Source of the DNA: a virus
Taxonomy: Duplodnaviria; Heunggongvirae; Uroviricota; Caudoviricetes
Virus record (IMG/VR): IMGVR_UViG_2529293240_000016
Strand: one strand, 5' to 3'
Length of the DNA: 15,032 nucleotides
Each line of letters starts with the position of its first letter. The stretch's first letter is position 1. The notes under the pieces are model-generated. The model was not told the origin of the DNA, did no database searches, and worked only from the letters and a program-made list of their open reading frames with translations. Both the position numbers and the translations under genes were made by a program. This document shows, in pieces, positions 12,757-13,571 of this stretch.

Positions 12757-13005
12757 CTCACTGAGATTAAAGCAAAGCGCAAAATTGCGCTGGCTACATC
12801 CCTCACATCTGAGGACTGTTAACCAGCAGGCCGGAATATATTCACAAACTACGAAATTTTCGCAGTTTAATTACTCGTCAGCTTAATCGCTAACCCGCTC
12901 TGATATTTTCGGAAACCTCAATTTGAGGAAGTCGGCGAGGTAACTGTTTGATATTCCCGATAGCGCAAAAATGCGCGGTCGGGCAGAATGACCACCACCT
13001 CAATC

Positions 13006-13040
13006 GTGACGGAGAGTGACAACCAGTGACACACCGTGAC
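13006..13040 (+). repeat. Four helically phased GTGAC direct repeats
   Basis: GTGAC at 13006, 13016, 13026 and 13036 (exact 10-bp period). Confidence 0.6.
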
Positions 13041-13408
13041 AAAAAGACGGTTTAACCGTTCATTAAAAATCGACGTGATTTTGTGCTTTCCGGATGACGT
13101 GGCCAACGTCATTTTTTAGCGAAAAATTCTGATTAAGGTCACTGGCTGAACGGTCATAATGACCACGCAGACCATCGAGGCAACCATAGCGATCATCGTT
13201 ACGGTTGGAGCTTTTCCGCCATTGGTGGAAAAGGTGCACATCTGGATCATCATTACGGTGATCAAGGGTATGTAAAACCCACCAGCCTGATTAAAGGTTA
13301 ACCGGAAAAAAATCCGGTAGCCCCGTTATGGGGATCCCCATATCGACATTAACGCCCCTCATGAATTGGTGCGCTTCCCCCTGGAAAGATTACCCGCCTG
13401 TATATTTC

Positions 13409-13434
13409 TTGTGTCTATTTGTTCCACGTTGTTT
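13409..13434 (+). repeat. Phased TTGT(G/T)T repeats, second copy of the 5901-5926 motif
   Basis: TTGTGT, TTGTTC, TTGTTT at 10-bp spacing; the 15-mer TTGTTCCACGTTGTT is shared with 5911-5925. Confidence 0.5.
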
Positions 13435-13451
13435 CATACAGTGCACCGAAC

Positions 13452-13471
13452 GGTGTAGTTAATGGTGTAGT
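13452..13471 (+). repeat. Two GGTGTAGT direct repeats
   Basis: GGTGTAGT at 13452 and 13464. Confidence 0.4.
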
Positions 13472-13522
13472 CAATTTGCGATTTTTGGCACTTTTTCAAT
13501 GAAAATTGTTTAATCGAATCAA

Positions 13523-13551
13523 TGACTTGACTTGATTTGACTTGACTTGAT
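13523..13551 (+). repeat. Tandem duplication of TGACTTGACTTGAT next to the phoQ stop
   Basis: Two 14-bp units (13523-13536 and 13538-13551) separated by 1 nt; contains four TTGACT hexamers. Confidence 0.6.
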
Positions 13552-13571
13552 GTAGTGATAAAAGGACATAT

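What the first reader, a model, noticed from the sequence alone, without database searches (positions are those of the whole stretch)
12757..13571. Repeat-rich junction between island and phoQ: probable att/arm region, core not identified
No gene of 60 aa or more is convincing here, yet the interval holds four GTGAC repeats at exact 10-bp spacing (13006-13040), phased TTGT(G/T)T repeats, two GGTGTAGT repeats, a 14-bp palindrome ATGGGGATCCCCAT (13328-13341) and a tandem TGACTTGACTTGAT duplication 20 bp from the phoQ stop. Such density of phased direct repeats is typical of integrase/excisionase arm sites. It implies insertion directly 3' of phoQ, where from memory E. coli K-12 has ycfD/roxA instead.
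Basis: partly seen in the sequence, partly recalled or inferred. Interest (0 to 1): 0.5.

Follow-up and report, generated by a model that had tools for sequence, protein, structure and literature searches.

The report
Right end of a phage satellite
The interval is the right-hand end of a known kind of phage satellite island (a capsid-forming PICI) inserted just after phoQ: only its last ~250 bp is the integrase attachment arm and core, and the GTGAC repeats further in are a separate, portable module that looks like phage replication-origin repeats.

Summary
All the listed repeats are present at the stated coordinates, and the junction is real. About 5,370 of 5,423 E. coli genomes match only from window 13564 onward, and K-12 has roxA there. 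The island is an EcCIEDL933-like capsid-forming PICI, at the same roxA/phoQ site as the prototype EcCICFT073.

I located the core. The attR core is TGATAAAA|GGACATA|TTTATTCA (13556-13578), and the crossover region ends one base before the phoQ stop codon. The true arm is 13320-13563. It contains the palindrome, the 10-bp-phased TTGT repeats, two GGTGTAGTYAAT repeats and an IHF-consensus site. This block travels with the integrase type, and 75 bp of it recurs just upstream of int on the other arm.

The TGACT tract is an unstable microsatellite, and this copy number is not matched by any of the 883 E. coli genomes that carry the arm.

The GTGAC x4 array is not an arm site. It lies more than 520 bp from the core and occurs in satellites with other integrases, other sites and other replicases. 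It matches the phased GTCAC iterons found inside the gene of a common lambdoid "replisome organizer", which the island does not encode. Its role is unproven.

Overall this is a known kind of element with one possibly new detail.

The parts
12475..12756 (+). Last gene of the island (93 aa, 'orf93'). It is a PICI-specific protein of unknown function and marks the left boundary of the finding.
   Evidence: It matches phrog_1561 at E=1.5e-55. It has no Pfam match and no tblastn match in 50,697 phage records. The gene sits at this position in both cf-PICIs and Rpp-type PICIs. The AlphaFold2 model is low-confidence (pLDDT 69.5, three helices) and has no fold match.
12752..12976 (+). Post-orf93 spacer. 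It carries a ~40-bp direct repeat (12752-12790 and 12939-12976: GGTAACT..AGCGCAAAA(T/A)TGCGC) and several short hairpins. These look like cargo-segment boundaries.
   Evidence: Repeat families D1, D3 and D6 and inverted pair I5 are reported. L001 carries an extra copy. A minus-strand terminator-like hairpin lies at 12791-12776. The block TTTCGGAAACCTCAATTTGAGGAAGTCGG is conserved in all five aligned islands.
12838..13319 (.). Portable non-coding cargo block, independent of the integrase.
   Evidence: It is 96.7% identical to L007, an Rpp-type PICI with a different 474-aa integrase inserted at a tRNA-Ile gene. Identity stops at 13319/13320.
13005..13051 (+). GTGAC array: four pentamers at 10-bp spacing (13006-13040) plus AAAAAGACGGT. 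It is an iteron-like array with no cognate initiator in the island.
   Evidence: The array is supported. The module boundary falls at exactly 13005 in three independent contexts. The array is found in 265 of 5,426 E. coli genomes. Across variants the pentamers are invariant while 6 of 15 spacer positions vary (Fisher p=0.003). L009 and L139 carry five copies. The same pentamer and period occur inside the gene of an O-like initiator family.
13047..13117 (.). Two terminator-like hairpins. ACGGTTTAACCGT (13047-13059) is followed by a T-run on the minus strand. ATGACGT-GGCCA-ACGTCAT (13094-13112) is followed by TTTTTT on the plus strand.
   Evidence: The minus-strand site was found by the scan. 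The plus-strand hairpin was read directly from the sequence and appears in the fold. Window 13077-13135 is ~78% identical to 59 bp just downstream of the endolysin gene in Stx phages.
13140..13319 (.). Conserved non-coding stretch with a 16+16-nt palindrome (13206-13238) flanked by GATCATC(G/A)TTACGGT repeats. Its function is unknown.
   Evidence: The repeats and palindrome are D5 and I4. The stretch is conserved in L001, L003, L005, L007 and CFT073. There is no significant RNA structure signal: z-scores are -1.4 to -1.7 and the covariation term is unfavourable. A hydrophobic minus-strand ORF (13116-13265) is not conserved in L008 or L009 and has no family match.
13320..13563 (+). P arm of attR (about 245 bp). 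It contains, in order: the palindrome ATGGGGATCCCCAT (13328-13341); TTGT(G/T)(T/C) repeats at 13409, 13419 and 13429; GGTGTAGT(T/C)AAT x2 (13452-13475); the IHF consensus AATCAATGACTTG (13517-13529); the variable TGACT tract (13523-13551); GATGTAGT (13549-13556); and the core-type site TGATAAAA (13556-13563).
   Evidence: The block co-varies with the integrase type. It is shared with L009 (yifB site, 95.7%) and L005/L006 (tqsA site). L008 (clpS site) has TTGTTCG x3 plus GGTGTAGTTAAT x2. L007, which has a different integrase, does not share it. Window 13402-13476 repeats L001 1420-1494, just upstream of int. The arm is present in 883 of 5,426 genomes and is never annotated. The IHF consensus has 3 matches in the window against 0.6 expected, and it sits at a fixed distance from the GGTGTAGT pair in phoQ-site and tqsA-site islands.
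13564..13578 (+). att core. The overlap/crossover region is GGACATA (13564-13570). The identity with attL and attB runs 13564-13573 (GGACATATTT). The chromosomal core-type site is TTTATTCA (13571-13578). The island/chromosome junction is at 13563|13564.
   Evidence: attB is ..gaagtatGGGCATATTTattcatc (K-12). Empty sites with 100% identity starting at 13564 carry GGACATATTT. attL in L001 and CFT073 is ..gaagtatGGACATATTTtatcaatt, and attR is ..gataaaaGGACATATTTattcatc.
13572..15032 (-). phoQ (486 aa, complete). Its stop codon overlaps the core identity by 2 nt.
   Evidence: The ORF and its translation are. Annotation comes from matching genomes.

Best explanation
The interval is the right end (attR side) of an integrated capsid-forming phage-inducible chromosomal island (cf-PICI, EcCIEDL933 type). 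The island sits between roxA and phoQ, the same site used by the prototype PICI EcCICFT073. The interval has two parts.

(1) 13320-13578 is the recombination site. It consists of a ~245-bp P arm, a core-type site (TGATAAAA), a 7-bp overlap (GGACATA) and the chromosomal half-site. The island's P4-like tyrosine integrase has an N-terminal arm-binding domain. It is inferred to bind the repeated TTGTTYCA and/or GGTGTAGTYAAT motifs on this arm and on the int-proximal arm. IHF would bend the DNA at AATCAATGACTTG, and the catalytic domains would exchange strands in GGACATA, one base beyond the phoQ stop codon. Because the same repeats lie 20-45 bp upstream of the int start codon on the other arm, they probably also autoregulate int, as in KplE1.

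(2) 12757-13319 is a variable, non-coding cargo and spacer zone between the last island gene and the arm. It is assembled from portable blocks. The GTGAC x4 array belongs to this zone. It is most likely a protein-binding array of the iteron type and is not part of the integration machinery.

Shown here: the junction, the core, the direct repeat at both island ends, the duplication of arm motifs on both arms, and the modular distribution of the blocks. Inferred: which protein binds which repeat, IHF use, autoregulation, and any function of the GTGAC array.

This particular island copy is probably immobile. IS1 interrupts its primase gene, terL carries a 19-bp deletion, and a 15-bp slippage duplication lies between the arm sites and the core.
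For: Junction: most E. coli genomes match only from window 13564 onward. The empty site in K-12 has roxA 75 bp from phoQ.

Island identity: the window encodes an HK97-type capsid, protease, portal, head-completion protein, connector, HNH endonuclease, P27-type TerS and TerL, with no tail or lysis genes. L001 shows the full island as roxA|int-alpA-...-terL-orf93|phoQ. CFT073 carries EcCICFT073 at the same site, and the capsid and decoration genes c1499/c1500 are described in PMC6092414. EcCIEDL933 is described in bioRxiv 10.1101/2022.09.08.507074 as sharing int, alpA and rep with EcCICFT073.

Core: GGACATATTT is present at both attL and attR, and the inverted repeats TGATAAAA/TTTTATCA flank GGACATA in the reconstructed attP.

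Integrase: it carries Arm-DNA-bind_3 (E=5.5e-18) plus Phage_integrase.

Arm repeats on both arms: 75 bp at 77% identity, E=7e-14.

The arm block follows the integrase type across the phoQ, tqsA, yifB and clpS sites, and it diverges at exactly 13320 in an island with a different integrase.

IHF consensus.

Precedent for int autoregulation when attL overlaps the int promoter: PMC2951348.

Decay of this copy.
Against: - The window does not contain int or attL. The attP and core analysis therefore relies on relatives that are about 95% identical in this region (L001, CFT073).
- No binding, excision or circular-form data exist for this copy.
- The assignment of the two repeat families to Int, the AlpA-type RDF or another protein is unresolved.
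- K-12's attB has GGGCATA, one mismatch in the proposed overlap, so the exact limits of the overlap are inferred from the symmetry of the flanking core sites and are not mapped.
- The strict IHF consensus is absent from the yifB-site and clpS-site relatives.
- 12757-13319 has conserved blocks, including the 13206-13238 palindrome and the GTGAC array, whose functions are not explained.
Confidence: 0.85

Rival explanations
1. The GTGAC x4 array is an orphan set of origin iterons for the initiator of a different, very common lambdoid phage family (the Evi / vB_EcoS-689R5-type 'replisome organizer'). The satellite would carry it either to be replicated by that phage's initiator (a hitch-hiking origin) or to titrate the initiator (a decoy that interferes with the phage).
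For: - Phased GTCAC(G) repeats at 10-11-bp spacing lie inside the initiator gene, just after its N-terminal domain. They have the same orientation in E. coli phages Evi and 689R5, Pseudomonas phage phi1 and an E. albertii prophage. The same holds in four further bacteria whose proteins are only 30-69% identical.
- The extended unit (C/A)GTGAC(A/G) is shared.
- This initiator is present in 1,821 of 5,426 E. coli genomes.
- The island encodes no homologue of it.
- The island's own origin uses different iterons, located 3' of its replicase gene: GGTAGA in the window and GTGAG in L001 (PMC6092414).
- The array is independent of integrase, replicase and packaging type.
- The pentamers are conserved while the spacers drift (p=0.003).
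Against: - The similarity is at motif level only. blastn finds no continuous homology between the array and the phage origins.
- The AT-rich flank lies on the opposite side compared with the phage's second iteron cluster.
- Phased GTGAC arrays also occur next to an unrelated integrase gene beside a tRNA end (L069) and near other replication-type genes (L110), so the motif is not specific to this family.
- The known cf-PICI helper HK106 has no such array and uses a different replication module.
- No co-occurrence test could be run.
Confidence: 0.3
2. The whole 815-bp interval is the integrase/excisionase arm. On this reading the GTGAC repeats are Xis/RDF or Int sites.
For: The interval is dense in phased direct repeats. 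In one unrelated element (L069) a GTGAC array does lie between an integrase gene and a tRNA end.
Against: - The array is 524 bp from the overlap region.
- It is absent from EcCICFT073, L003 and L004, which have essentially the same arm, core and integration site.
- It is present at 100% identity in L007, which has a different integrase and a tRNA-Ile site.
- No GTGAC cluster occurs on the int-proximal arm or anywhere else in the islands.
Confidence: 0.05
3. The interval holds the island's packaging site (cos or pac).
For: It lies directly after the terminase genes. EcCICFT073 is reported to have two cos sites near its 3' end (PMC6739421 and PMC6092414).
Against: - The lambda-type cosN (GGGCGGCGACCT) of the Rpp-type islands flanks rpp, upstream of orf93. 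It is absent from the finding region and from the whole window at up to 1 mismatch.
- The blocks in the interval are shared between islands that use lambda-type and HK97/HNH-type packaging.
- For HK97-like systems the expected cos position is between the HNH and terS genes. The window has a G/C-rich stretch there, at about 10360-10430.
Confidence: 0.04
4. The cargo zone encodes a small hydrophobic peptide (minus strand, ..MIAMVASMVCVVIMTVQ..; ORF 13116-13265) or a small RNA. This could be, for example, a type I toxin-antitoxin pair bounded by the two convergent terminator-like hairpins.
For: - The hydrophobic core of the peptide is retained in L003, with only conservative changes (my reading).
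- A promoter-like site lies at 13276-13249 on the minus strand, and a terminator-like site at 13059-13047 on the minus strand.
- A plus-strand hairpin with a T-run lies at 13094-13117.
Against: - No Shine-Dalgarno sequence is evident upstream of the candidate start codons.
- The ORF is not conserved in L008 or L009, which keep the array.
- There is no PHROG match and no Rfam match.
- Fold z-scores are only -1.4 to -1.7, and the covariation term is unfavourable.
- PGAP calls no gene here in any related genome examined.
- The number of promoter and terminator hits is no greater than in shuffled sequence.
Confidence: 0.08
5. 12757-13319, including the GTGAC array, is non-functional debris. On this reading it consists of remnants of earlier cargo and recombination scars in the satellite's 3' variable region, and it appears conserved only because the blocks spread recently.
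For: - The structure is mosaic, with sharp breakpoints and repeated ~40-bp boundary sequences.
- A 59-bp stretch resembles non-coding DNA downstream of the Stx-phage endolysin gene.
- Most copies are 90-100% identical.
- This copy of the island is visibly decaying.
Against: - The array's boundary is identical in three contexts, and its copy number is maintained at 4-5.
- Substitutions avoid the pentamers (p=0.003).
- The array is kept in islands with four different insertion sites and in at least three packaging or replication configurations.
Confidence: 0.25

Closest known systems
EcCICFT073, the prototype Gram-negative PICI, and its int-attP module (Fillol-Salom et al. 2018, PMC6092414)
   Same: It has the same insertion site between roxA and phoQ. 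It has the same core, GGACATATTT, and a near-identical int-proximal arm. Its attR arm is about 90% identical to window 13206-13600, and it carries the same orf93.
   Different: EcCICFT073 is an Rpp-type island with lambda-type cos sites flanking rpp. It lacks the capsid-forming module, the 12795-13205 cargo blocks and the GTGAC array.
EcCIEDL933, the prototype capsid-forming PICI (bioRxiv 10.1101/2022.09.08.507074)
   Same: [quoted passage not shown] It is about 15 kb long. The paper reports that its int is identical to that of EcCICFT073. The arm block is present in O157:H7 genomes.
   Different: I did not retrieve the EDL933 copy itself. The window's copy has an IS1-disrupted D5-type primase, a frameshifted terL and a 15-bp duplication in the arm. 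The paper does not describe the region downstream of the last gene.
Lambda-type attP and the KplE1 (IntS/TorI) recombination module, in which attL overlaps the int promoter (PMC2951348)
   Same: It has a heterobivalent tyrosine integrase. It has inverted core-type sites around a 7-bp overlap, arm-type direct repeats on both arms and an IHF consensus between arm and core. The arm repeats lie immediately upstream of an int gene that reads away from the core.
   Different: The motifs are different. The insertion is not in a tRNA gene; it lies one base after a protein-coding stop codon. The RDF is of the AlpA type. No binding has been demonstrated.
Origin iterons inside the initiator gene of lambdoid phages (the lambda O/ori arrangement), here in the Evi/689R5 'replisome organizer' family
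   Same: The pentamer is the same (GTCAC, equivalent to GTGAC on the other strand). The spacing is the same 10-11 bp. Each cluster has 4-5 copies, and the flanking-base preference is shared.
   Different: In the satellite the array is non-coding. It has no initiator gene in cis or anywhere else in the island. It has no continuous sequence homology to the phage origins, and the placement of the AT-rich flank differs.

Membership tests
attR of a heterobivalent tyrosine-integrase element (lambda/P4 type) | A sharp junction with the uninterrupted chromosomal site. | tested here: met
   Most E. coli genomes match only from window 13564 onward. The K-12 empty site is shown.
attR of a heterobivalent tyrosine-integrase element (lambda/P4 type) | The same short core as a direct repeat at both ends of the element. 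| tested here: met
   GGACATATTT is present at attL and attR of L001 and CFT073, and at the attR of the window. The window itself lacks attL.
attR of a heterobivalent tyrosine-integrase element (lambda/P4 type) | Inverted core-type sites flanking a 6-8-bp overlap region. | tested here: met
   The reconstructed attP reads TGATAAAA-GGACATA-TTTTATCA, with perfect 8-bp inverted repeats. The overlap limits are inferred and have not been mapped.
attR of a heterobivalent tyrosine-integrase element (lambda/P4 type) | An integrase with a separate arm-binding domain. | tested here: met
   The L001 integrase carries PF13356 Arm-DNA-bind_3 (E=5.5e-18) and PF00589. The int gene lies outside the window.
attR of a heterobivalent tyrosine-integrase element (lambda/P4 type) | Arm-type repeats present on both arms that co-vary with the integrase. 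| tested here: met
   The P and P' arms share a 75-bp repeat at E=7e-14. The block follows the integrase type across four sites and breaks at 13320 in an island with a different integrase.
attR of a heterobivalent tyrosine-integrase element (lambda/P4 type) | A binding site for a host bending protein (IHF) between the arm sites and the core. | tested here: inconclusive
   The consensus WATCAANNNNTTR matches at 13517-13529. It is conserved at a fixed distance from the arm repeats in phoQ-site and tqsA-site islands, but not in yifB-site or clpS-site islands. This is a consensus match only.
attR of a heterobivalent tyrosine-integrase element (lambda/P4 type) | Excision to a circular form with restoration of attB. 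| not testable with these tools
   This needs PCR or long-read data. It has been reported for EcCICFT073 in PMC6092414.
Capsid-forming PICI (cf-PICI) | [quoted passage not shown] | tested here: met
   Pfam assignments are and the L001 annotation. In this copy terL is frameshifted.
Capsid-forming PICI (cf-PICI) | A PICI backbone of int, alpA and pri/rep, with an origin of two iteron sets around an AT-rich region 3' of rep. | tested here: met
   int and alpA are present in L001. The primase and GGTAGA iterons lie at window 1918-4443 and about 4460-4680. The criterion comes from PMC6092414.
Capsid-forming PICI (cf-PICI) | Induction and mobilisation by a helper phage that supplies only tails. | not testable with these tools
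   This is an experimental criterion. This copy is likely defective.
Origin of the Evi-type replisome-organizer phages | At least 4 GTCAC(G) units at 10-11-bp spacing. | tested here: met
Origin of the Evi-type replisome-organizer phages | The array is embedded in, or adjacent to, the cognate initiator gene. | tested here: not met
   There is no homologue in the window, L001, L007, L008, L009 or CFT073 (tblastn gives only E>1 noise).
Origin of the Evi-type replisome-organizer phages | An AT-rich unwinding region next to the iterons. | tested here: inconclusive
   An A/T-rich 45 bp follows the array (13041-13090), but it lies on the opposite side relative to the phage's second iteron cluster.
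Lambda-type cos site of Rpp-type PICIs | cosN GGGCGGCGACCT with a cosQ-like sequence upstream. | tested here: not met
   It is absent from the finding region. In CFT073, L003, L004 and L007 it flanks rpp, upstream of orf93.

The most novel reading that the evidence does not exclude
A subset of E. coli phage satellites (265 of 5,426 genomes) carries an orphan array of origin iterons at its 3' end. The array belongs to a lambdoid phage replication initiator that is itself present in a third of E. coli genomes, and the satellites do not encode that initiator. The carriers include both Rpp-type and capsid-forming PICIs and have several different integrases. The array would let the satellite either borrow that phage's initiator for replication or soak it up as a decoy, which would be a DNA-only interference or hitch-hiking device.
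Probability: 0.2. Interest if true: 0.65.

Novelty: new member of a known kind. Interest (0 to 1): 0.3.

Why it matters
The main result is ordinary. It places a repeat-rich, unannotated stretch within a known framework, the attR end of a PICI-family satellite at a known PICI site. It also supplies the core, the arm limits and the candidate protein-binding motifs. These are not annotated in any of the 883 genomes that carry this arm.

Two points have wider use.

First, arm blocks and cargo blocks can be separated simply by asking which segment travels with the integrase. Here that shows the most eye-catching repeat is not part of the recombination site.

Second, the GTGAC array may be a target for a phage replication initiator that the satellite does not encode. 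If so, satellites would exploit or sabotage helper or competitor phage replication through bare DNA sites. This mechanism is not among the described PICI interference strategies (capsid redirection, Rpp, TerS substitution).

Tried and rejected
- **Lambda-type cos in the interval.** Rejected. cosN lies elsewhere in Rpp-type islands and is absent here.
- **GTGAC array as the island's own origin.** Rejected. The island's own iterons are GGTAGA or GTGAG, next to the replicase gene, and the array is independent of replicase type.
- **GTGAC array as a remnant of an O-like gene.** No protein-level similarity was found.
- **Rfam families.** None at E<=1.
- **Structured RNA in 13000-13345, either strand.** The z-scores are weak and there is no supporting covariation.
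- **Promoter and terminator scan.** Counts are no higher than in shuffled sequence.
- **Small ORFs against PHROGs.** No match.
- **orf93 as the array-binding protein.** It has no Pfam domain. The AlphaFold2 model is low-confidence, and no fold match reaches E<=0.001. The best TM-score (0.55, to the ColE2 Rep DNA-binding domain at E=2) is not significant. orf93 also occurs without the array.
- **Collection-wide scan for the GTGAC x4 pattern.** It was useful only for the handful of loci with the O-like gene.
- **Known helper HK106 as the source of the array.** Rejected. It has no GTGAC clusters.
- **The 59-bp similarity to Stx-phage DNA downstream of the endolysin gene.** It is real but short, and its meaning is unknown.
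- **Exact source genome.** Not found. The closest relatives are S. flexneri SFBU1023 (97-99.7% over window 7297-15030) and E. coli 2014C-3097.
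Full report
**Observation.**
- The four GTGAC pentamers at 13006-13040 are spaced exactly 10 bp apart. This is the only such array in the window and never arises in 200 shuffles.
- GGTGTAGT occurs at 13452 and 13464, with a one-mismatch copy at 13549.
- TTGTGT, TTGTTC and TTGTTT lie at 13409, 13419 and 13429.
- ATGGGGATCCCCAT is at 13328-13341.
- TGACTTGACTTGAT occurs twice, at 13523-13551, 20 bp from the phoQ stop codon at 13572-13574.
- No ORF in the interval has a family match, there is no Rfam match, and PGAP annotates nothing in the homologous stretch of related genomes.

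**What the surrounding DNA is.** The window encodes the following:
- a DUF4222 protein
- a D5-type primase split by IS1
- an HK97-type major capsid protein
- a prohead protease
- a portal protein
- a head-completion protein
- a connector
- an HNH endonuclease
- a P27-type small terminase
- a large terminase
- a 93-aa protein (orf93)

There are no tail or lysis genes. The best E. coli relative, strain 2014C-3097 (L001), shows the complete element. It reads roxA, a tyrosine integrase, an AlpA-type regulator, a replication module, the same capsid and packaging module, orf93, about 850 bp of unannotated DNA, then phoQ. This is the architecture of the capsid-forming PICIs described for EcCIEDL933 (bioRxiv 10.1101/2022.09.08.507074). 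CFT073 carries the prototype PICI EcCICFT073 at the same roxA/phoQ site. It has the capsid-like and decoration genes c1499/c1500 named in PMC6092414 and the same orf93 next to phoQ. K-12-type genomes have roxA 75 bp from phoQ.

**The core.** I compared the empty site, attL and attR.
- attB: ..gaagtatGGGCATATTTattcatc
- attL (L001 and CFT073): ..gaagtatGGACATATTTtatcaatt
- attR (window, L001 and CFT073): ..gataaaaGGACATATTTattcatc

The shared segment is GGACATATTT (window 13564-13573). Many empty sites carry GGACAT exactly, as shown by the 100%-identity hits that start at 13564. Joining the two island ends gives TGATAAAA-GGACATA-TTTTATCA, a perfect 8-bp inverted repeat around a 7-bp spacer. This is the classic layout of core-type sites around an overlap region. 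The overlap ends one base before the phoQ stop codon, so phoQ stays intact. The limits of the overlap are inferred from the symmetry and have not been mapped.

**The arm.** The integrase of these islands has an Arm-DNA-bind_3 domain as well as the catalytic domain, so arm-type sites are expected. Two lines of evidence define them.
- First, window 13402-13476 contains the 10-bp-phased TTGT repeats followed by GGTGTAGTTAATGGTGTAGTCAAT. This stretch is repeated in the same order and orientation at L001 1420-1494, 20-95 bp upstream of the int start codon (77% identity over 75 bp, E=7e-14). The int-proximal arm has a further cluster of phased (C/A)(C/T)GTTTCA units nearer the core.
- Second, the block 13320-13563 travels with the integrase type. 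It is 95.7% identical in a cf-PICI inserted at yifB (L009) and recognisable in islands at tqsA (L005, L006). In clpS-site islands (L008) it survives as TTGTTCG x3 plus GGTGTAGTTAAT x2. In L007, which has a different 474-aa integrase and a tRNA-Ile site, identity with the window runs at 96.7% up to 13319 and stops there.

The arm also holds a match to the IHF consensus, AATCAATGACTTG, at 13517-13529. There are three matches in the 15-kb window against 0.6 expected. The site sits at a fixed distance from the GGTGTAGT pair in phoQ-site and tqsA-site islands, even where the neighbouring sequence differs. Because the same repeats overlie the region just upstream of int, int autoregulation of the KplE1 kind is likely (PMC2951348). 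That remains an inference. Which repeat family binds Int and which, if any, binds the AlpA-type factor is not resolved. The arm block is present in 883 of 5,426 complete E. coli genomes and is never annotated.

**The TGACT tract.** The tandem duplication next to phoQ is a 5-bp-period microsatellite whose length differs between islands. S. flexneri SFBU1023 has only TGACTTGAT. L001 and CFT073 have one 14-bp unit. The window has two. None of the 883 genomes with this arm aligns through the duplication. It lengthens the distance between the arm sites and the core by 15 bp. The copy also has an IS1 insertion in the primase gene (2817-3584, with a 9-bp target duplication) and a 19-bp deletion in terL. 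This copy of the island is therefore probably immobile.

**The rest of the interval (12757-13319) is not arm.** Alignment of five islands shows a mosaic.
- A post-orf93 segment carries a recurring ~40-bp boundary repeat and short hairpins.
- A block of about 12950-13135 is present only in some islands.
- A stretch at 13140-13319 is conserved and contains a 16+16-nt palindrome.

I found no good evidence for a gene or a structured RNA here. The lambda-type cos sites reported for EcCICFT073 (PMC6739421 and PMC6092414) flank rpp, upstream of orf93, and are absent from the interval.

**The GTGAC array.** It is a module in its own right.
- Its left boundary is at exactly 13005 in three independent contexts.
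- It occurs in 265 of 5,426 genomes.
- In every example I inspected it lies in the 3' zone of a PICI-family island.
- Those islands are inserted at phoQ, tRNA-Ile, clpS, yifB, yejO and inside a prophage terminase gene.
- It occurs with D5-type or RepA-type replicases and with lambda-cos/Rpp or HNH/TerS packaging.
- EcCICFT073 and other phoQ-site islands lack it.
- Across the variants the pentamers never change, while 6 of 15 spacer positions do (Fisher p=0.003). Some islands have five copies.

The array is therefore not an Int or Xis site of this element. It is not the island's own origin either, because that origin uses GGTAGA or GTGAG iterons 3' of the replicase gene, as described for PICIs.

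A collection-wide scan for the pattern was mostly noise, but it led to an E. albertii prophage in which six phased copies lie inside a replication-initiator gene. That initiator has an N-terminal domain plus a DnaT domain and is followed by a lambda-P-like gene. The same family is found in E. coli phages Evi and vB_EcoS-689R5 and in Pseudomonas phage phi1. All three have clusters of four and five GTCAC(G) units at 10-11-bp spacing in the same position and orientation within the gene. Four more bacteria, whose proteins are only 30-69% identical, show the same arrangement. This is the lambda-style arrangement of an origin inside the initiator gene. It indicates that phased GTCAC is the iteron of this family. 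The initiator is present in 1,821 of 5,426 E. coli genomes. The islands have no homologue of it.

The most interesting reading is therefore that the satellite carries orphan iterons for another phage's initiator. I rate this at about 0.2-0.3, for four reasons.
- The link is at motif level only.
- Phased GTGAC arrays also occur beside an unrelated integrase gene and near other replication-type genes elsewhere.
- The AT-rich flank is on the other side.
- The known cf-PICI helper HK106 has no such array.

orf93, which often sits immediately upstream of the array, gave no usable structural or family clue.

**Verdict.** The finding is a correct observation of a real junction. The element and its site are known kinds, and the anatomy of the core and arm is a routine addition to them. 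The GTGAC array is the only part that might be new. It needs a binding or phenotype test.

Noticed in passing
window 2817-3584 (flanking ORFs 1918-2838 and 3571-4443): A 768-bp IS1, with a 9-bp target duplication (GTACATGAT), splits the island's D5-type primase/replicase gene. This IS1 explains the tens of thousands of BLAST places, including plasmids, found for the whole-window query.
   Followed up: yes
window about 12151 (ORFs 10819-12234 and 12126-12461): The large terminase gene has a 19-bp deletion relative to L001. The deletion frameshifts it into two ORFs. Together with the IS1 insertion, this suggests the island copy is defective.
   Followed up: yes
window about 4460-4680: The island's own replication origin lies here. 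Two sets of GGTAGA/TCTACC iterons in opposite orientation flank an AT-rich stretch, directly 3' of the primase gene, as described for PICIs.
   Followed up: partly
window about 10360-10430: A G/C-rich stretch lies between the HNH endonuclease gene and the small terminase gene (GGGGTGGGGGCG...CCCGACCCCGCCGGGC). This is the position where HK97-like systems have cos, so it is a candidate cf-PICI cos site.
   Followed up: no
L133 1630-1675 and 1890-1945; L135; L134; L020 3900-3962: A family of lambdoid 'replisome organizer' initiators has two clusters of phased GTCAC(G) repeats inside its own gene. The repeats are conserved from E. coli phages to Pseudomonas phages. The family is present in 1,821 of 5,426 E. 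coli genomes and is usually annotated only as hypothetical protein or replisome organizer.
   Followed up: partly
window 13077-13135 (minus strand) versus L132 1201-1259: A 59-bp stretch is about 78% identical to non-coding DNA just downstream of the endolysin gene R in many Stx-converting phages (E down to 2e-5). Its meaning is unknown. It may be a shared moron-boundary or terminator sequence.
   Followed up: partly
L009 about 4200-4420: In the yifB-site cf-PICI, the 3' cargo zone holds inverted sets of GCGGGTTAT iterons around an AT-rich stretch. The arrangement looks like an origin and overlaps a small annotated minus-strand gene. This is a second example of iteron-like DNA in the satellite 3' zone.
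   Followed up: no
L138 (NZ_CP123335.1): A satellite carrying orf93 plus the GTGAC array sits inside a prophage terminase gpA gene. This matches the 'helper-embedded satellite' arrangement described in bioRxiv 10.1101/2022.07.18.500453.
   Followed up: no
window 13564-13574 and L002 2433-2509: The insertion separates phoQ from roxA by about 15 kb. In K-12 the two genes are only 75 bp apart on the same strand, with no obvious intrinsic terminator between them. Read-through from phoQ would therefore enter the island arm in the antisense direction.
   Followed up: no
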